A stretch of DNA of 64,000 bases, taken from the IMG/VR virus record IMGVR_UViG_3300037483_001148, positions 36,046-100,045 of that record, one strand, 5' to 3'. The position numbers were made by a program, and so were the translations under genes. Within the stretch, counting starts at the first letter, position 1, and every line of letters starts with the position of its first letter. This document shows positions 2,982 to 16,628 of this stretch, one piece after another. The notes beneath the pieces are model-generated. The model did not search any database, was not told the DNA's origin, and saw only the letters and a list, made by a program, of their open reading frames with translations. Source of the DNA: a virus.

Positions 2982-3463
2982 TCATGTCTGCTGAGTTTGT
3001 AAAATTTACTGATGATACACTGGAAAACACAAAAAAGTTAGCTGAAGGAGTAAAGGGTATTAAATGTGTTTATGTTGGTTCACCATCGGGAGTGCCGGTA
3101 GCTCACCAGATGGTTCATTTAACTGAAGTGTTGGAAGCTTTAGAGAACATCCCCCCCATTGTAAAGTTTGGTGGTTGTGAAGTATACGCCAACCAGTATG
3201 CCAATTATTTTGTCAGAGATGTAAGTGAAAAGGTGATCGGCTTTATCCGCTATACTCCTGAACAAGAAACGCATACTCAATTTTGGAGTGCTGAGGGATT
3301 CTGGCGCAGCCAGCTAGCCCAAAGCAAAGAGGATAAATCCATTTTGCCAATCCTTGCGGAAGCTGAAAAAATCCCCTTAACCGGTCATGAGATGAATGAC
3401 ATCGAAGGCTTGCTCAGGCAAGCTTATCGAGCCGGAGCTAATTCCTGGTTTGGAGAAGAATGA
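2978..3463 (+). CDS. hypothetical protein
   Basis: AGGAG RBS, ATGA overlap. Confidence 0.7.
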   Translation: MIMSAEFVKFTDDTLENTKKLAEGVKGIKCVYVGSPSGVPVAHQMVHLTEVLEALENIPPIVKFGGCEVYANQYANYFVRDVSEKVIGFIRYTPEQETHTQFWSAEGFWRSQLAQSKEDKSILPILAEAEKIPLTGHEMNDIEGLLRQAYRAGANSWFGEE

Positions 3464-11156: not shown

Positions 11157-11561
11157 ATGTCTGACTGTGTGTACTACGCTCTAAACCAACATCTTAGATG
11201 GCTTAGGGTAAGTCCGGTTAGGGTATTTGGGGTATATAACCAGGTACGCTTTCTATCCGGCCATAAATGGAACGATGATACTTTTGCCGGGGTTGTACCT
11301 TACATGGCCTTCCAGCTTGCGAAAATTTATGATGACCTGACAGCCATTGTGGAGCGTAACCCTGACTTTGACCTGTTGGCTCAAGCTAACACAGCAGAGA
11401 AAAAGTTCATGGGGGACATGGGGACAAGCCCCATTACCCCTGGCCCTGGTGTTTATTGTGGTTATTTTTCAGCCCATGCTATCTTCTGGTCACATGAACA
11501 AATGCCGATTGGGGATACATGGGTATTATCAATTAAATTCAGGAGGTTAAAAAATGACTGA
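11157..11561 (+). CDS. hypothetical protein, possible minimal Cys-His (papain-like) peptidase
   Basis: N-terminal DCVYYAL helix and distal SAHAIFW strand; AGGAG RBS; overlaps the Ubl-like gene. Confidence 0.5.
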   Translation: MSDCVYYALNQHLRWLRVSPVRVFGVYNQVRFLSGHKWNDDTFAGVVPYMAFQLAKIYDDLTAIVERNPDFDLLAQANTAEKKFMGDMGTSPITPGPGVYCGYFSAHAIFWSHEQMPIGDTWVLSIKFRRLKND

Positions 11562-11895
11562 AGTATTGACGGTTCAAATTAGAGTTTTGTTTCCAAATAA
11601 CGCTACCCATCACGCTGGTGAATCGGTAGACGTTCCGGCCCATGAGGTTCTTCGAGAAAATGACGACCTGGCCTCAATGTCGGATGCTACCCTGGTTCAC
11701 CGAGTAGAGGCGTATCTGGATTTGCCGGAAGGGACGATGCACGGCATGATCGTGCAACGGCCTGAAGCCGGGAACATTCTCATTACTGCCAAGACCCGAT
11801 TCGGCAATTTTAGTTGTGGGTACTGCGGAGCTACTTTTAGAAACTACCTGGACCTTCGCAATCACTTGACAGTGAATCCCACCCACAGCATCTAA
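11554..11895 (+). CDS. putative ubiquitin-like (beta-grasp) protein fused to a C-terminal C2H2 zinc finger
   Basis: beta-beta-alpha-beta-beta pattern ending GNILITAKTRFG (G84), then C-x2-C-x3-F-x5-L-x2-H-x6-H; AGGAGG RBS; E1-like gene nearby. Confidence 0.65.
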   Translation: MTEVLTVQIRVLFPNNATHHAGESVDVPAHEVLRENDDLASMSDATLVHRVEAYLDLPEGTMHGMIVQRPEAGNILITAKTRFGNFSCGYCGATFRNYLDLRNHLTVNPTHSI

Positions 11896-11917
11896 TGTTC
11901 CAGTTTTCCAGAACATC

Positions 11918-11946
11918 TTGACAAAATGGGTGGTTCGTAGTACACT
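11918..11946 (+). promoter_or_regulatory. sigma70 promoter for the ncRNA/tRNA cassette
   Basis: TTGACA-17 nt-TACACT; predicted +1 near 11953 coincides with the first RNA stem. Confidence 0.8.
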
Positions 11947-11952
11947 AAGACT

Positions 11953-12020
11953 ATCGTTCAACGGCAAGGGCGAACAAACACCAACAGCAAAAGTTTTTTA
12001 GCTCTTACTGCACAGAACGT
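11953..12020 (+). ncRNA. Y-RNA-like element A (minimal, no tRNA domain)
   Basis: CGTTC-AA-CGG-C-AAGGGC-GAACAAAC...GCTCTT-A-CTG-CACA-GAACG; same stem recurs in three downstream elements; upstream of Ro-like gene. Confidence 0.65.
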
Positions 12021-12038
12021 TACAGGATGGCGCGTTGA

Positions 12039-12118
12039 AAGGTAGGATTGACCGACTACCACAAATGCTGGATAAGAATGGTCGTTAAACATTAAACCCC
12101 AGTCACATCCGAAACCTT
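12039..12118 (+). ncRNA. unidentified structured RNA inside the cassette
   Basis: AAGGT/ACCTT, GGAT/ATCC, TGAC/GTCA, CGACTA/TGGTCG pairings. Confidence 0.35.
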
Positions 12119-12126
12119 AAAAATCA

Positions 12127-12268
12127 TTAACCGTTCGACTCTGGCAGCTTACAAACAGTATGGGTTCGATTCCCATATTCCAAGCTTCTTGGAATTAGCC
12201 TAATGGTAGGGCAACAGTCTTTCAAAAACTGTCTAAAAAATGCAGCTTTCAGTACATGGAACGGTTGA
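12127..12268 (+). ncRNA. Y-RNA-like element B (YrlA-like) with circularly permuted tRNA domain
   Basis: Outer stem TTAACCGTTC/GAACGGTTGA; order is T-arm ATGGG-TTCGATT-CCCAT, closed acceptor ATTCCAAG-CTT-CTTGGAAT, D-arm GCCT-AATGGTA-GGGC, anticodon arm ACAGT-CTTTCAAAA-ACTGT. Confidence 0.8.
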
Positions 12269-12275
12269 TACATAA

Positions 12276-12347
12276 TGTGGGGTAGAGCAGAGGTAGCTCG
12301 TCACGCTCATAACGTGAAGGTCGTGAGTTCGATTCTCACCCCCGCTA
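12276..12347 (+). tRNA. tRNA-Met(CAT), initiator-like
   Basis: TGTGGGG/CCCCGCT with 1:72 mismatch, GAGC/GCTC D-stem, TCACG-CTCATAA-CGTGA, GTGAG-TTCGATT-CTCAC; CCA not encoded. Confidence 0.9.
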
Positions 12348-12351
12348 CTAT

Positions 12352-12490
12352 GGCCTCCTAGCTAAAAATGCAATTGAAAGTAACCTAATCACAGAACGAG
12401 TTTCTCGTTCAACCTGGGGTACTTACAAACAATGGACAAAGCGTCAGTCTTAGGAACTGAAGAATCCTGGTTCGATTCCAGGGGAGGCCA
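12352..12490 (+). ncRNA. tRNA(TAG anticodon)-like RNA with a permuted Y-like module inserted in the D-arm (element D)
   Basis: GGCCTCC/GGAGGCC-A acceptor, TCAGT-CTTAGGA-ACTGA, CCTGG-TTCGATT-CCAGG; about 66-nt insert containing CACAGAACGAG-TTT-CTCGTTCAAC. Confidence 0.8.
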
Positions 12491-12491
12491 C

Positions 12492-12622
12492 TAATTCGTT
12501 CAACTCTAATGGCGAACAAACTTATGGTGCAGAGGTAGCACAACAAATTCATACTTTGTCGGTCGCAAGTTCGATTCTTGCTAAGTTTACCAAAAAACCG
12601 CCAATAGAACACAGAACGATTA
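12492..12622 (+). ncRNA. Y-RNA-like element E enclosing an intact tRNA
   Basis: TCGTTC-AAC-TCTA-A-TGGCG-AAC [tRNA] AAAAAC-CGCCA-A-TAGA-ACACA-GAACGA. Confidence 0.75.
12518..12592 (+). tRNA. tRNA with CAT anticodon (Met or Ile2), CCA encoded, nested in element E
   Basis: AAACTTA/TAAGTTT-A-CCA, GTGC-AGAGGTA-GCAC, ACAAA-TTCATAC-TTTGT, GCAAG-TTCGATT-CTTGC. Confidence 0.85.
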
Positions 12623-12627
12623 AAAAG

Positions 12628-12666
12628 AAAACAAAGAGTGGCCGCATTTAGCGGTCATTTTTGTTT
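12628..12666 (+). terminator. intrinsic terminator closing the RNA cassette
   Basis: AAACAAAGAGTGGCCGC-ATTTA-GCGGTCATTTTTGTTT. Confidence 0.8.
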
Positions 12667-12690
12667 AATATACATAAAAGAGGTTAAACG

Positions 12691-14169
12691 ATGGAACAAA
12701 ATACTGCCAGAAAGTTATTGTTCGACAATCTCCTAAAACTCCCCCACCGAGACTATAATGAATTAGTCCCCCACTTCTCCAAAGCAATGCTTGATGACCC
12801 CGATTTTACTTCCAAAGCAATGGTTTATCTGTTTACAACTTCAGTGATTCGAGATCAGCAAGACACGGCTGTTATTGCTCTCTTATCGTCACCAGCCCAT
12901 TTTGGCCTTCGAGATGCAGGTAAGGCTTTGTTCGGCCTGGACTTCTACAGAACTGCCAACACGACTGGTATGAAGGCTATGCCCCCATTTCGTCTGTTTC
13001 GCATCTTGCATTACCTTATGGGGTTTGGCCGGTACAAAGGTCAAAAAGCAATTAGTCCCCGACTGACCAGAACGTTGATGAATGACTACCTCACTTTCCT
13101 GGAATCTCATCCTGAGCGTTTTGATCGAGTCATTGCTCTCAATCGGCAAGAGGTTCATGATGCTTATGTCACCTTACATCGCAAACCTTCAGATCGAGTT
13201 AAGGCCATTGTGTTTGAAGACAATCCCCCCGAAGATTCCATTTTCTTTGCTATCAAGCAAGTTGGCCGGGAAGCTGACCCAATGGAAAAGGCAAGATTGG
13301 CAATGAAATTCAAGTTGCCTTATACCGTAGCTTCGGGCTTACTGCCCAAGAAAAACGCGGCAGCGCATGTGGCTCTCATTGATTTGATGTCGCCCACCGA
13401 AGCGGCCAATTCTATCGCCTGGGTAGAAAACTCAGGCGTGCTTGAAATCCCCGAAGTCAAAGCGGCTTTTGCCGCAAAGGTGGCAATGGCTAAGGACGTT
13501 ACCAGCCTGAAGCATCGAAAAAGTAGTGCATCCAAAAATGAAGCTGTTCAGCAAGCCGTATCTCAGGCCAGAGAAAAAGCTACGAGCGAAGCCAAGAAAA
13601 TCACCAAACGGGTTTTGCTCAACATTGATCGTTCCGGCTCAATGCGGCCAGCAATTGAAGTAGCTAAGGAATTTGCCGCTTTTTTAGGGGCAAGGCTGGA
13701 ATCACCTGATTTGCTCTATATGGTGGCTTTTAACGACATGGCTACTCGAATTAAGCCCCGTTCTCTGGCCTTGAGCGATGTTGAAGCAGCTTGCATGCTT
13801 ATAAAGGATAACGGGGCAACGTGTTTGGGAGTTGGGATTCAGACCGCTTTAGCAGATGGATTTGAACCGGAGGTTATTGTAACCCTCAGTGATTTTGAGG
13901 AAAACCGTAGACCCTCGTATTTGGAAATGGCCTCTAAGGTTGATTGCCAGCATGTGTTCATTGGCTTGGGCAACTACAAAGGGTATGCCCAGGCTTATAC
14001 TAATTCAGTGGAAAGCAAAGGGCATGCGGTATCGTTCTTTCCCTACATGGCTTCAGGACGTAATGACTATTACCTGTTTGAGCAAATAGCGGCTATTTTG
14101 GCTGGTCAGGGGAAAAAGAGTTTGGTCCAGGCTATTTTGGATATTGAACTGCCGTATGTGGTGAAGTAA
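12691..14169 (+). CDS. divergent Ro60/TROVE-like helical domain plus C-terminal vWA protein
   Basis: About 300-aa helical N-region (LPHR, DPDF..KAMVYL...IRD, LPYTVA, MSPTE) then LNIDRSGSM, GAT, LSDFEEN MIDAS; Ro60 size and layout; adjacent Y-like RNAs. Confidence 0.75.
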   Translation: MEQNTARKLLFDNLLKLPHRDYNELVPHFSKAMLDDPDFTSKAMVYLFTTSVIRDQQDTAVIALLSSPAHFGLRDAGKALFGLDFYRTANTTGMKAMPPFRLFRILHYLMGFGRYKGQKAISPRLTRTLMNDYLTFLESHPERFDRVIALNRQEVHDAYVTLHRKPSDRVKAIVFEDNPPEDSIFFAIKQVGREADPMEKARLAMKFKLPYTVASGLLPKKNAAAHVALIDLMSPTEAANSIAWVENSGVLEIPEVKAAFAAKVAMAKDVTSLKHRKSSASKNEAVQQAVSQAREKATSEAKKITKRVLLNIDRSGSMRPAIEVAKEFAAFLGARLESPDLLYMVAFNDMATRIKPRSLALSDVEAACMLIKDNGATCLGVGIQTALADGFEPEVIVTLSDFEENRRPSYLEMASKVDCQHVFIGLGNYKGYAQAYTNSVESKGHAVSFFPYMASGRNDYYLFEQIAAILAGQGKKSLVQAILDIELPYVVK

Positions 14170-14645: not shown

Positions 14646-14789
14646 ATGTATCTAAAATTAGGTCCGTTTGCAATAAACGTTAAAATGTATGAACTGATAA
14701 TTGTGTGTATGTCCTTAGTTCTTCTCTGTGCTGGCTTAACCGGCATAGTTAGAGCAATAGTACCTCTATTCATAAAATGTCTTTATTAA
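14646..14789 (+). CDS. small membrane protein
   Basis: GAGGT RBS; one hydrophobic helix. Confidence 0.5.
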   Translation: MYLKLGPFAINVKMYELIIVCMSLVLLCAGLTGIVRAIVPLFIKCLY

Positions 14790-15649
14790 ACGTTCTGAAC
14801 AAGCTAAGTGAACATATCCCCCAACCATTCTTAGCCCCTATCCCTCAGTCTGAAATAGTCTCCTGCTTTACTTTGCAGGAGACTATTCCTTATTGGTTTC
14901 ATCTAACCAACCCTCAACCTGGCTGGTGGTGGTTAAAACCGCATAGAAATGAAGCTGTCTTAAACCGGGAAGCTGAACCTCACGAATATCTATCTTACCT
15001 CTCACAGTTACCTCGCTGGATCGTCATTGTGATAGAGCAAAACCAGCATGGGGTAGTAGTAGTTCCTTACAATGCCTCAGATGCGACTCAACGCGGCTGG
15101 CTTAACTCTGAGCCTCGTTATGTCTATCTCACCAGAAAAGTCCAGCTTCAGACTTTTTCTGTTGTCTGTGTTAGAAACATGGCCGGAACGCTTCTATTTG
15201 ATGATTTCTATCCTTTAGATATAGAAGTGCAAAAAAAGTTGACAGATGGGGTAAACGAACAAAGGCCAGTAGTTGTGCCAGGCCATTTTAGTGTGGTATG
15301 GCAAATCGCTTTCCGGCGAATGGCCGAAGAAAGAGATCGTCAACTAAAAGAAGAAATCGAAAGAAAACGAAAGGAAGCGCAACTAACCGAAGAAGGCCGG
15401 ATTAGATACCGACTGGAATATGTTGGGGCTGAATTAGTTGAATATAAAAAACGAGGGGAACGATTTGATGTCACTTATGAGTACAATGGAGCAAGATTCA
15501 CCATGAATGTTAGACCCGACATGAGGATTGAGAGTGCCGGGATTTGTCTTTCGGGTGAAGATTCTAACCATGATCTATCATCCATTGTACTTACTATGGA
15601 ACGAGCCAGAGAGTTGCACAGACCGGGGATTGAGAGGTATCACCTATGA
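14777..15649 (+). CDS. conserved-looking protein with putative E2-like (Ubl-conjugating) C-terminal Cys motif
   Basis: C-terminal strands then IESAGICLSGED (C257), similar to the G-x-ICL active-site segment of UBC folds; coiled-coil linker; next to ThiF gene. Confidence 0.5.
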   Translation: MSLLNVLNKLSEHIPQPFLAPIPQSEIVSCFTLQETIPYWFHLTNPQPGWWWLKPHRNEAVLNREAEPHEYLSYLSQLPRWIVIVIEQNQHGVVVVPYNASDATQRGWLNSEPRYVYLTRKVQLQTFSVVCVRNMAGTLLFDDFYPLDIEVQKKLTDGVNEQRPVVVPGHFSVVWQIAFRRMAEERDRQLKEEIERKRKEAQLTEEGRIRYRLEYVGAELVEYKKRGERFDVTYEYNGARFTMNVRPDMRIESAGICLSGEDSNHDLSSIVLTMERARELHRPGIERYHL

Positions 15650-16059
15650 CTGTACCTGAATGGGCAATTGATTACATCCAATATTGGCGGGATATTTTAC
15701 TTCTACAAGAATGGCAATTTTTTACCAGCCTGACCGATGAGCCATTAGGCGATAGCCAAAATTTGGCCGGAGTGAATGTTCAAGCTGATTATGTCACGGC
15801 TCGAATTGAAATAAGGGATGACATTCCGGTTAATATAGAAGAAGCTGATGCACTCGACCAGTACAGATGGAAAAAGACGATCATCCATGAATTGGTGCAT
15901 GTAAGGCTATATCGAATTACCTGTTTTGTGCAGGACAACATATTTCCCGAACTAGGCCAGTCACTCTATGGGATAATTAGCAGGCAATTTAAGCAAATGG
16001 TTGAGCCAACAGTCGAAATTTTAACTGAAATCCTATACAGTCTGAGTGAGGCAAAATGA
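15646..16059 (+). CDS. zincin-like metallopeptidase (HExxH)
   Basis: TIIHELVHV with a distal Glu helix (VEPTVEIL). Confidence 0.7.
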   Translation: MTVPEWAIDYIQYWRDILLLQEWQFFTSLTDEPLGDSQNLAGVNVQADYVTARIEIRDDIPVNIEEADALDQYRWKKTIIHELVHVRLYRITCFVQDNIFPELGQSLYGIISRQFKQMVEPTVEILTEILYSLSEAK

Positions 16060-16628
16060 TTATTTTATGCGGTTGTGGCTCAGTTGGATCAAAGATTGCT
16101 CTTGAGCTATCAAGTTTGGATAATGAGTGGATACTTATTGACGATGATGAAATTGAGCCTGAGAATGTTCCTGTCTCAGCATATCTCCATGACCAAATTG
16201 GTCAAACTAAAGTAATAGCTCTGGCTGAATTGCTATGGCGTAAAAATAGGGTAATCGCCAAACCCTACTCAAAAACACTCAGCCGGAATGTTCACCAAAT
16301 TTTTCCAGATGGATTGGTAATTGAAAGTTTTGACAATCCGGCAGCAAGGTTGCTTACCATCAACCCATTTAAGCATGCAGACCATCCGGTAATTCACATC
16401 GGCGTAGATTTAGGTGAAGTAGGCTCAGTAGTTTGGGATGTTCATTACAGGTTGCCGGAGATTGATTTCAACCGAGGTAACAACCCCGTTTGCACGAGGC
16501 AAGCCGGGGCTAATATCATTAGGTTTACTGTTACCATAGCGGTTTATGCCATAAGTCAATACTTAAGCAATGTAGTTAAAAACAGTTATTTTATCAATAA
16601 TGGAATGATAGTGAGGATGAACAAATGA
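16056..16628 (+). CDS. ThiF/MoeB/E1-family adenylyltransferase
   Basis: IILCGCGSVGS Rossmann loop, LIDDDEIEPEN, IGQTKVIAL, ESFDN..AR; candidate catalytic Cys146 (NPVC). Confidence 0.85.
   Translation: MIILCGCGSVGSKIALELSSLDNEWILIDDDEIEPENVPVSAYLHDQIGQTKVIALAELLWRKNRVIAKPYSKTLSRNVHQIFPDGLVIESFDNPAARLLTINPFKHADHPVIHIGVDLGEVGSVVWDVHYRLPEIDFNRGNNPVCTRQAGANIIRFTVTIAVYAISQYLSNVVKNSYFINNGMIVRMNK

What the first reader, a model, noticed from the sequence alone, without database searches (positions are those of the whole stretch)
12492..12622. Intact CCA-ending tRNA(CAU) caged inside a Y-like stem
A full cloverleaf (12518-12592, A1-U72, the only CCA-encoding tRNA seen in the window) has leader and trailer that base-pair to form the Y-like module. 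Inference: a pre-tRNA whose release by RNase P and 3' trimming may be gated by Ro binding (a stored spare tRNA), or a decoy for Met/Ile2-tRNA-targeting defence nucleases.
Basis: partly seen in the sequence, partly recalled or inferred. Interest (0 to 1): 0.75.

Follow-up and report, generated by a model that had tools for sequence, protein, structure and literature searches.

The report
Whole tRNA built into Y-like RNA
A phage small-RNA gene joins a complete CAU-anticodon tRNA to a conserved two-helix "handle" that three neighbouring RNAs share, just upstream of a gene for a Ro60-shaped RNA-binding protein; the same tRNA-in-handle design recurs in five distant phages with other anticodons, so it is most likely a new kind of Ro/Y-RNA partner and not an ordinary tRNA gene.

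Summary
Positions 12518-12592 are a canonical tRNA(CAU) with an encoded CCA, the only such tRNA in the 100-kb phage record. Its leader and trailer form a two-helix handle at 12496-12514 and 12599-12619.

The same handle occurs four times, only in this 700-nt array, between a promoter and a terminator upstream of ORF 12691-14169. The AlphaFold2 model of that ORF matches Ro60/Rsr over its full length, although Pfam TROVE does not detect it.

Four relatives with 26-36% protein identity carry five more handle-plus-tRNA modules. Their anticodons differ: UGU, UUA, AAG, UUU and UCG. Their acceptor stems begin with the handle's CA-rich motif, not with the G1-C72 start of those phages' free tRNAs. Two of these phages also have free tRNA genes with the same anticodon elsewhere.

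My reading, at about 0.55, is a chimeric Y-like RNA whose tRNA stays tethered as a bait or mimic module of a Ro60-like particle.

No RNA data exist, and binding to the protein is inferred. This is a new variant of a known kind (Ro60 with YrlA). Earlier unchecked notes of this scan report analogous handle RNAs beside DUF2828-type Ro60-like genes in other phages.

The parts
11918..11946 (+). Sigma-70-type promoter of the RNA array (TTGACA, 17 nt, TACACT)
   Evidence: 10 of 12 matches. The relatives have equivalent TTGACA/TATAAT-type boxes upstream of their arrays, read.
11955..12019 (+). Module M1: the handle alone, closing a plain loop
   Evidence: Motif pair; fold; register table.
12126..12269 (+). 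Module M2: handle carrying a circularly permuted tRNA body (T arm, closed acceptor hairpin, D arm, anticodon-like hairpin)
   Evidence: Fold z -3.83. Partial Rfam YrlA match of 22.5 bits at 12159-12212, below the gathering score of 69.
12276..12348 (+). Free-standing tRNA(CAU) #1 inside the array, with no encoded CCA
   Evidence: It resembles tRNA-Met genes of other phages and metagenome contigs.
12352..12490 (+). Module M3: tRNA-like body (acceptor GGCCUCC/GGAGGCC, T arm, anticodon-like arm UAG) with the handle inserted as a closed hairpin
   Evidence: Rfam tRNA 26.8 bits; fold z -3.53; hairpin CACAGAACG-N7-CGTTCAAC at 12390-12413.
12496..12514 (+). M4 handle, 5' strand: helix 1 (12496-12501), loop AAC (12502-12504), helix 2 (12505-12514)
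12515..12521 (+). AACAAAC motif shared by all four modules; its last four bases are A1-C4 of the tRNA
   Evidence: The huge phage LR756511.1 has the same offset.
12518..12592 (+). Complete tRNA, anticodon CAU, A73, encoded CCA
12593..12598 (+). A-rich 3' linker AAAAAC; its AAAC can pair with the acceptor 3' strand GUUU as an alternative
   Evidence: The MFE uses this pairing. The same is seen in L095.
12599..12619 (+). M4 handle, 3' strand: helix 2 (12599-12608), loop ACACA (12609-12613), helix 1 (12614-12619)
12634..12662 (+). Intrinsic-terminator-like hairpin with a T run, between the array and the Ro60-like gene
12691..14169 (+). Ro60-like protein, 492 aa: helical repeat ring plus vWA domain with a DxSxS MIDAS motif
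   Evidence: AF2 model with pLDDT 80. The top 12 PDB matches are all Ro60/Rsr/TROVE, best E 2e-10, about 500 aligned columns. Viral matches include a Gordonia phage Ro-like protein. The profile hits the human Ro60 vWA domain at 2e-6. The MIDAS residues are invariant.

Best explanation
Positions 12496-12619 encode one chimeric small RNA of a Y-RNA-like family.

It has two parts:
- A conserved two-helix handle. It consists of helix 1 (core CGU/ACG), an asymmetric internal loop, a 10-nt helix 2 and a single-stranded ACAAAC motif. This is the presumed docking site for the Ro60-like ring encoded downstream.
- A complete tRNA at the apex of the handle, attached through both of its acceptor ends.

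Proposed course of events:
- The RNA is made as part of a roughly 700-nt array transcript, from the promoter at 11918 to the terminator at 12662.
- tRNA-processing enzymes cut the array at the neighbouring tRNA and tRNA-like units.
- In the particle, the tRNA stays tethered to the handle. If RNase P nicks at A1, the 15 base pairs of the handle still hold the 3' trailer.
- The tethered tRNA displays its elbow and a normal-looking anticodon loop as the effector module, as the tRNA-like domain of YrlA does.

The most likely use is as a bait or mimic for a factor that reads anticodon loops, such as a host tRNA-targeting nuclease or a modification enzyme. An extra decoding tRNA is less likely.

Shown: the anatomy, the paralogue covariation, the conservation of the design in distant phages, and the Ro60-like fold of the neighbouring protein.

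Inferred: that the protein binds the handle, that the tRNA stays attached, and who the partner is.
For: 1. Same handle in four modules. The 25-nt 5' half occurs four times and only here in the 100-kb genome. Helix 2 covaries in register, with 34 of 44 cells paired against 11-22 when slid.

2. Neighbouring protein. The 492-aa ORF is modelled as a full-length Ro60 fold with an invariant MIDAS motif. Published Y RNAs lie next to Ro60 genes, in phages too (PMC4201824; PMC12135203).

3. Conserved design. Handle-plus-tRNA modules lie upstream of the orthologous gene in four other phage lineages at 26-36% protein identity. All five score above the Rfam tRNA cut-off, and all fold as helix 1, loop, helix 2, cloverleaf:
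- L001, two modules: anticodons UUA and AAG.
- L002: UUU.
- L004: UCG.
- LR756511.1: UGU.
The core CGU/ACG is invariant while the flanking pairs change.

4. Fixed geometry. The window and LR756511.1 share the exact offset (AAC, 10 nt, WACAAAC, with tRNA +1 at the fourth base), followed by N-CCA and an A-rich linker.

5. Signs that the embedded copies are not ordinary decoders:
- The anticodon is not conserved.
- UUA sits in a phage whose Ro-like gene ends in TAA.
- The AAG tRNA has a short variable region, not the long arm of ordinary tRNA-Leu.
- The L002 copy has a degenerate acceptor and D arm.
- Every acceptor stem starts with the handle's A/C-rich motif.
- The 172-kb phage (L002) and LR756511.1 also carry free tRNA-Lys(UUU) and tRNA-Thr(UGU) genes that start with G1. 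The embedded copies keep the same 7-nt anticodon loop.

6. Published precedent. YrlA is a tRNA mimic, and M. smegmatis YrlA is cut by RNase P yet both halves stay bound to Rsr.
Against: - No transcript, end-mapping or binding data exist. No listed sequencing run is on record as RNA.
- The handle lacks the published Ro-binding motifs (GNCGAA, GGUCCGA, CGAA). Assigning it to the Ro60-like protein therefore rests on gene linkage only.
- The window's own tRNA is flawless and scores as well as real tRNAs.
- It has A73 and an encoded CCA followed by an A-rich single strand, which is what a processable precursor would look like.
- This phage has only three tRNAs, and AUA makes up 28% of its Ile codons. 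A real Met or Ile2 decoder would be useful to it.
- Free tRNA #1 in the same transcript shows that the array is exposed to tRNA processing.
- Close relatives (46-61% protein identity) could not be examined at the DNA level. Conservation of this particular anticodon is therefore unknown.
Confidence: 0.55

Rival explanations
1. Caged precursor. The module is a pre-tRNA whose leader-trailer stem, with or without the Ro60-like protein, delays RNase P and 3' trimming. The end product is a free, chargeable tRNA-Met or tRNA-Ile2 used in translation of the AT-rich phage genes.
For: - The cloverleaf is canonical at 65.8 bits, with all tertiary positions, A73 and an encoded CCA.
- The 3' linker is single-stranded and A-rich.
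- The phage has only three tRNAs (CAU, CAU, GAU), and AUA makes up 28% of its Ile codons.
- Neighbouring tRNA #1 must be cut from the same transcript.
- M. smegmatis YrlA shows that RNase P can act on Y-RNA-embedded tRNA shapes.
Against: - Equivalent modules in relatives carry varying, non-decoding or redundant anticodons and non-canonical acceptor stems.
- The first four tRNA bases are fixed by the handle motif.
- After an RNase P cut, 15 base pairs would still hold the 3' trailer.
- Only 3 nt separate helix 2 from the cleavage site.
Confidence: 0.25
2. Processing stalk. The leader-trailer helices are cleavage sites for a double-strand-specific nuclease such as RNase III, like the stems that flank rRNAs. 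They serve only to cut the array into units and have no link to the Ro60-like protein.
For: - The architecture is a stem that encloses a stable RNA within a polycistronic transcript.
- Irregular stems with internal loops are used as phage RNase III sites (established knowledge for T7).
Against: - The helices are short, 5-6 bp plus 10 bp with a mismatch.
- A sequence core (CGU/ACG), the loop and the ACAAAC motif are conserved, which a structure-only site would not need.
- M1 encloses nothing, and in M3 the handle is a closed hairpin inside a tRNA-like body.
- The handle family travels with the Ro60-like gene in every locus found.
Confidence: 0.07
3. Evolutionary accident. A tRNA gene landed in, or duplicated into, the loop of a Y-like RNA, and the fusion has no function of its own.
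For: - tRNA #1 and the embedded tRNA share identical D loop, T loop and part of the variable region, which suggests a local duplication.
- The published model derives Y RNAs from dimeric tRNA transcripts.
Against: - The same fusion, with the same junction geometry, is kept in five lineages at 26-36% protein identity.
- The stems of the embedded copy have all changed compensatorily while the cloverleaf is kept.
Confidence: 0.05

Closest known systems
YrlA / YrlB Y RNAs with bacterial and mycobacteriophage Ro60 (Rsr); Rfam RF02553; Chen et al. 2014 (PMC4201824); Wang et al. 2018 (bioRxiv 10.1101/312249)
   Same: - Small RNAs encoded next to a Ro60-type gene, several per locus and processed from one precursor.
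- The 5' and 3' ends pair into a stem with an internal loop.
- The other end of the RNA is a tRNA-shaped module with T and D arms.
- M2 of this array even matches the YrlA model over T arm, acceptor hairpin and D arm, at 22.5 bits.
   Different: - YrlA has no anticodon loop and no free or encoded CCA. Its Ro-binding stem takes the place of the anticodon stem.
- Here the tRNA is complete and is joined through its acceptor ends.
- The GNCGAA motif is absent.
- No module reaches the Rfam cut-off.
- The protein is not detected by Pfam TROVE.
M. smegmatis YrlA, cleaved by RNase P and CCA-added (Chen et al. 2014)
   Same: A Y RNA whose tRNA-like part has a 7-bp acceptor stem that tRNA enzymes recognise. 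The cleaved halves stay with Rsr.
   Different: - There the acceptor end is created by cleavage of a closed stem, and the CCA is added afterwards.
- Here the CCA is encoded, and both acceptor strands run on into the handle.
Thermus phage phiLo Ro60 with Yrl1/Yrl2 (PMC12135203; PDB 9KOP, 9L5Y)
   Same: - A phage Ro60 gene with Y-like RNAs upstream.
- The structure is among the fold matches of the window's protein.
- It binds host PNPase in vitro.
   Different: - The passages of that paper retrieved do not mention a tRNA module in Yrl1/Yrl2.
- The Yrl RNAs were identified by a CGAA motif, which is absent here.
Handle RNAs beside DUF2828-type Ro60-like phage genes (earlier AI notes of this scan: e1-6009501, e1-5832275, e1-440189). 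These notes are not published and were not checked here.
   Same: As reported there: arrays of small RNAs that share a stem running into a UACAGCAA-type motif, some of them carrying whole tRNA bodies, next to a Ro60-shaped protein.
   Different: - The motif here is WACAAAC with a CGU/ACG helix core.
- The protein matches neither DUF2828 nor TROVE in Pfam. By fold it lies nearer to Ro/TROVE than to DUF2828.
- No look-alike stretch was found in the scan's index.
tRNA-like elements that remain part of a larger RNA or are cut from it (tmRNA, viral 3' tRNA-like structures, lncRNA 3' tRNA-like structures), as reviewed
   Same: A tRNA shape used as a recognition module outside ordinary decoding.
   Different: As described, those are partial mimics of a tRNA. 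This one is a complete, canonical cloverleaf flanked on both sides by a protein-binding handle.

Membership tests
Y RNA / YrlA (RNA partners of Ro60) | Encoded next to a Ro60 (TROVE plus vWA ring) gene | tested here: met
   The array ends 70 nt upstream of ORF 12691-14169. Its AF2 model matches Ro60/Rsr over about 500 columns. The linkage is kept in all relatives.
Y RNA / YrlA (RNA partners of Ro60) | 5' and 3' ends pair into a stem interrupted by an internal loop or bulge | tested here: met
   Helix 1, loop, helix 2. Covariation among four paralogues and across relatives.
Y RNA / YrlA (RNA partners of Ro60) | Published Ro-binding sequence in the 5' strand (GNCGAAN0-1G in bacteria, GGUCCGA in vertebrates, CGAA in phiLo) | tested here: not met
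   The 5' strand is CGUUCRAC. The family-wide invariant core is CGU/ACG. M2's GUUCGA resembles GUCCGA, but that is one module only.
Y RNA / YrlA (RNA partners of Ro60) | Match to Rfam RF02553 at the gathering score | tested here: not met
   No hit for 12492-12622. M2 reaches 22.5 bits against 69.
Y RNA / YrlA (RNA partners of Ro60) | tRNA-like effector module (T and D arms, elbow) | tested here: met
   A complete tRNA at 65.8 bits. This goes beyond the definition, since YrlA lacks the anticodon loop.
Y RNA / YrlA (RNA partners of Ro60) | Physically bound by the Ro60 protein | not testable with these tools
   Needs RIP or EMSA. The only hint is a handle-like hairpin over the ribosome-binding site of the Ro-like gene in LR756511.1 (L095 about 3400-3440).
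Decoding tRNA (elongator Met or Ile2) | Canonical cloverleaf and tertiary nucleotides | tested here: met
Decoding tRNA (elongator Met or Ile2) | Free mature 5' end and 3' CCA end in vivo; aminoacylation | not testable with these tools
   No RNA run was listed. CCA is encoded but internal to the module.
Decoding tRNA (elongator Met or Ile2) | Isoacceptor identity conserved in the orthologous position of relatives | tested here: not met
   Anticodons are CAU, UGU, UUA, AAG, UUU and UCG. Acceptor stems follow the handle motif, not the G1-C72 start of the free isoacceptors.
Bacterial initiator tRNA | 1-72 mismatch and three G-C pairs at the bottom of the anticodon stem | tested here: not met
   A1-U72 is paired, and the anticodon stem is ACAAA/UUUGU.
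Ro60 / TROVE protein family (the neighbouring gene) | Helical-repeat ring plus vWA domain with a MIDAS motif | tested here: met
   Fold matches. DxSxS, T and D are invariant in 12 sequences. The vWA profile hits Ro60.
Ro60 / TROVE protein family (the neighbouring gene) | Sequence match to Pfam TROVE (or DUF2828) | tested here: not met
   Only vWA families match. One member hits vWA_Ro60 at 0.0055.

The most novel reading that the evidence does not exclude
The array may be a tRNA-presenting device. One protein-binding handle is grafted onto tRNA bodies in three topologies: at the variable loop in M2, as an internal hairpin insert in M3, and at the acceptor ends in M4. Each topology would expose a normal-looking anticodon loop on a Ro60-like ring.

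The particle would work together with the conserved neighbouring E1-like (ThiF), Ubl-like and 290-aa genes. It could capture or sense host enzymes that attack or modify tRNA anticodon loops and pass a signal or a tag to them. Alternatively, it could release the caged tRNA only when host tRNAs are damaged.
Probability: 0.12. Interest if true: 0.85.

Novelty: new variant of a known kind. Interest (0 to 1): 0.62.

Why it matters
The effector that bacterial Y RNAs recruit through their tRNA-like domain is still unknown. In this family the mimic is a whole tRNA with a real anticodon loop, and the anticodon changes from phage to phage. That narrows the search to factors that read anticodon loops, and it gives a direct experiment: pull down the particle and ask what binds or cuts the tRNA.

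The finding also adds a third, sequence-undetectable branch of Ro60-shaped phage proteins. This branch has its own RNA handle and a conserved link to E1-like and Ubl-like genes.

It also shows that tRNA-gene finders will annotate such modules as ordinary phage tRNAs, including an apparent ochre suppressor. That can mislead codon-usage or recoding studies.

Tried and rejected
The DNA around the closest protein relatives (P0002-P0007, 46-61% identity) could not be fetched. Conservation of this exact module and anticodon is untested.
- **IMG/VR pattern scan** for CACAGAACG-N3-11-CGTTCRAC gave 84 stretches. None of those loci encodes a Ro-like relative, so I treated the hits as chance.
- **Protein-pattern scans** of viral contigs gave only L001 and L002. 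Genome contigs gave nothing.
- **The look-up of sequencing runs** listed no RNA holder.
- **Read laying at 80% likeness** placed other organisms' contigs only on tRNA #1 and a few short pieces, none on 12492-12622.
- **blastn of the embedded tRNA** against 50,697 phage records found only T-arm-sized matches.
- **Rfam at gathering score** gives only tRNA. The YrlA hit is partial and on M2 only.
- **Pfam, PADLOC and PHROGs** do not name the Ro-like protein beyond vWA and a weak phrog_850 'RNA-binding protein' match.
- **MAFFT alignments** of whole modules misplace the window's 3' strand. I did not run the count of structure pairs or build a covariance model. I used anchored registers and single-sequence folds.
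- **Met versus Ile2 identity** could not be decided from sequence. The initiator reading was rejected.
- **The atlas search for the 290-aa neighbour** gave no usable hit.
- **The minus-strand ORF 12409-12612** (67 aa) overlaps the RNAs. I took it as spurious.

Full report
**What is at the coordinates**

ARAGORN and Rfam both call a tRNA at 12518-12592, with anticodon CAU and 65.8 bits against a cut-off of 29. Read directly, it has:
- a 7-bp A/U-rich acceptor stem (AAACUUA/UAAGUUU, A1-U72);
- the usual tertiary nucleotides;
- A73 and an encoded CCA at 12590-12592.

The whole virus record (100,045 bases; the window is 36046-100045 of it) has only three tRNAs. The other two are followed by CUA and UUA, so the "only CCA-encoding tRNA" remark is correct.

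- Helix 1: 12496-12501 with 12614-12619.
- Internal loop: AAC opposite ACACA.
- Helix 2: 12505-12514 with 12599-12608, with one A-A mismatch.
- A 3-nt 5' linker and a 6-nt A-rich 3' linker after the CCA.

The complete handle-plus-cloverleaf structure costs -28.6 kcal/mol, against -29.0 for the MFE. The MFE differs only in pairing the acceptor 3' strand GUUU with the linker's AAAC.

**It is one of four copies of a handle**

The intergenic stretch 11896-12690 holds four modules with the same 5' half and the same 3' half. The 5' half is CGTTCRAC, ten variable bases, then WACAAAC. The 3' half is ten variable bases, then CAYRGAACG. These are the only four copies in the 100-kb genome.

With the constant parts as anchors, the ten variable bases pair in register in 34 of 44 cells, against 11-22 in slid registers. 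Almost every position shows several pair types.

The cargo differs between modules:
- M1 (11955-12019) carries nothing.
- M2 (12126-12269) carries a circularly permuted tRNA body. It gives a partial, sub-threshold YrlA match.
- M3 (12352-12490) is a tRNA-like body with the handle as a closed internal hairpin.
- M4 is the finding.

A free tRNA(CAU) lies between M2 and M3. A promoter-like site (11918-11946, 10 of 12) precedes M1, and a terminator-like hairpin (12634-12662) follows M4.

**The neighbouring protein**

ORF 12691-14169 (492 aa) hits only vWA families in Pfam and weakly phrog_850 'RNA-binding protein'. An AlphaFold2 model built from nine homologues has a mean pLDDT of 80.

- Its top 12 PDB matches are all Ro60, Rsr or TROVE entries, aligned over about 500 columns with a best E of 2e-10. 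They include the Thermus phage phiLo protein.
- Among viral models, the best named matches are Ro-like or TROVE proteins.
- A profile of 12 family members hits the Ro60 vWA region colinearly.
- The MIDAS residues are invariant.

It is therefore a Ro60-shaped protein that sequence models do not recognise.

**Relatives**

Protein searches gave eight homologues. Loci were obtained from these sources:
- IMG/VR: L001 and L002.
- JGI metagenomes: L004-L008.
- GenBank: the 595-kb phage LR756511.1, locus L095.

In four of these five lineages, the RNA array upstream of the gene contains a tRNA at the apex of a handle:

| Module | Position | Anticodon | Notes | Rfam tRNA bits |
|---|---|---|---|---|
| L001a | L001 3453-3582 | UUA | C-CCA | 62.9 |
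| L001b | L001 3602-3735 | AAG | short variable region | 52.3 |
| L002c | L002 3793-3909 | UUU | degenerate acceptor and D arm | 45.2 |
| L004d | L004 2886-3014 | UCG | | 58.9 |
| L095e | L095 2261-2393 | UGU | U-CCA | 69.3 |

 Each folds on its own into helix 1, internal loop, helix 2 and the tRNA arms.

The helix sequences differ between lineages, while a CGU/ACG core is invariant. L095 has the same spacing as the window: AAC, 10 nt, UACAAAC, with tRNA +1 at the fourth base of that motif, followed by N-CCA and an A-rich linker ending in AAAC. The L005-L008 clade has a single Y-like stem-loop with a CGUUC strand and no tRNA.

**Decoder or module?**

For the window alone, both readings are possible.
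- The tRNA is flawless.
- AUA makes up 28% of Ile codons.
- The phage has only CAU, CAU and GAU tRNAs.

The family evidence points the other way.
- The anticodon at the equivalent position is never the same.
- One anticodon is UUA, in a phage whose Ro-like gene ends in TAA.
- The AAG tRNA has a short variable region, whereas the tRNA-Leu genes ARAGORN calls in these phages are 82-88 nt long.
- All the acceptor stems start with the handle's CA-rich motif.
- The complete 172-kb phage behind L002 has 46 tRNA hits in a separate island, including two free tRNA-Lys(UUU). LR756511.1 has 60 hits, including two free tRNA-Thr(UGU).
- Those free copies start with G1, and the two tRNA-Thr genes begin GCC. 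The embedded copies do not, yet they keep the same 7-nt anticodon loops, CUUUUAA and CUUGUAA.

The embedded tRNAs thus keep the anticodon loop faithfully but not the acceptor stem. A bait or mimic should look like this. A supplementary decoder should not.

**Mechanism proposed**

I take M4 to be a chimeric Y-like RNA. The handle docks on the Ro60-like ring. This is inferred from linkage and from what is published for Ro60 and Y RNAs. The tRNA is the effector module.

If RNase P nicks at A1, as it does in M. smegmatis YrlA, the 15 handle base pairs still hold the tRNA through its 3' trailer. An encoded CCA makes sense for an RNA whose 3' end is not free for the CCA-adding enzyme, though it fits a releasable precursor equally well.

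I put this reading at 0.55. Within it, I favour a bait for anticodon-loop-directed host enzymes. The rivals are:
- a pure processing stalk, at 0.07;
- a functionless fusion, at 0.05.

**Comparison with what is known**

The closest family is Ro60 with YrlA/YrlB.

Criteria met:
- linkage to a Ro60-type gene;
- a terminal stem with an internal loop;
- a tRNA-shaped module.

Criteria not met:
- the published Ro-binding motif;
- the Rfam threshold.

Binding itself is untested.

The topology is new relative to what I read. YrlA lacks the anticodon loop and a free CCA, and it joins the Ro-binding stem at the anticodon stem. Here the tRNA is whole and is joined at its acceptor ends.

Earlier notes of this scan report similar "handle" RNAs, some with whole tRNA bodies, next to DUF2828-type Ro60-like genes in many other phages. 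Those are unchecked AI notes. The present protein matches neither DUF2828 nor TROVE in Pfam, and no look-alike stretch was indexed.

**Context noticed**

The Ro-like gene travels with a 290-aa protein and a ThiF/E1-like protein in L001, L002 and L005-L008. A small Ubl-like protein accompanies it in L004 and L008. In L095 a 78-aa ORF inside the RNA array aligns with the window's 113-aa protein and ends exactly at its ...FG. I did not pursue this further.

**Limits**

There are no RNA data. Close relatives were unreachable. Whole-module alignments were unreliable, so covariation rests on anchored registers and single-sequence folds. The host is unknown; the only run that holds the whole stretch is labelled sediment metagenome and may be the source of this DNA.

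Noticed in passing
window 12352-12490; also L001 3316-3446, L002 3428-3551 and 3661-3790, L004 about 2425-2560, L095 about 1428-1572 and 1953-2082: A second conserved module type: a tRNA-like body with a free acceptor stem and a T arm, in which the handle sits as a closed hairpin (3' strand, loop, 5' strand), followed by the ACAAAC motif and an anticodon-like arm. Its 3' ends lack CCA (A-CUA, U-CUU, A-CUU), unlike the acceptor-joined type.
   Followed up: partly
window 12126-12269: M2 is a tRNA body opened between the anticodon arm and the T arm, with its acceptor stem closed by a small loop and a 9-nt anticodon-like loop. It gives the only (partial, 22.5-bit) YrlA match in the array.
   Followed up: partly
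window 11554-11895 and 14777-16628; L001, L002, L004-L008, L095: Conserved gene neighbourhood. The Ro60-like gene travels with a 290-aa protein of no known family and a ThiF/E1-like protein (weak hits to CBASS-type E1-E2 models). A small Ubl-like protein accompanies it in some loci. In the window that protein carries a C2H2 zinc-finger tail after ...TRFG. The L095 homologue (1634-1870) ends at ...AIFG.
   Followed up: partly
L095 about 3400-3440 (LR756511.1): A handle-like hairpin (CUUGGAUGCG-GAA-GCGUCCCCAAC) lies about 25 nt upstream of the Ro-like start codon and runs into its AGGAG ribosome-binding site. This could be autoregulation by the protein, which would link the handle to the protein. 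It is not present in the window.
   Followed up: no
window 12586-12598; L095 2356-2369: In both the window and LR756511.1, the linker after the CCA ends in AAAC. It can pair with the acceptor 3' strand GUUU in place of the tRNA's own 5' AAAC. The two states are nearly isoenergetic in the window (-29.0 against -28.6 kcal/mol). This may be a switch that frees the ACAAAC motif, or it may be a by-product of A-rich linkers.
   Followed up: partly
window 12276-12348 versus 12518-12592: The two CAU tRNAs share an identical D loop (AGAGGUA), T loop (UUCGAUU) and part of the variable region. All four stems differ, with paired changes, and the embedded copy is much more A/U-rich. They look like diverged paralogues. 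tRNA #1 has a U1-U72 mismatch.
   Followed up: partly
L001 3481-3555: A well-formed tRNA with anticodon UUA (it would read UAA) and an encoded CCA, in a phage whose Ro-like gene and the gene upstream of the array both end in TAA. Gene finders would call it an ochre suppressor.
   Followed up: partly
window 12020-12125: About 105 nt between M1 and M2, inside the same transcription unit, with no assigned element.
   Followed up: no
L005-L008 (e.g. L007 3847-3948): This clade of the protein family has only one upstream RNA. It is a long stem with a CGUUC strand and a T-arm-like apical hairpin, with no tRNA module.
   Followed up: partly
L098 326-639 (the 172-kb phage of L002): ARAGORN calls a tmRNA gene with a tag peptide in this phage, beside tRNA-Gln and tRNA-Met genes.
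   Followed up: no
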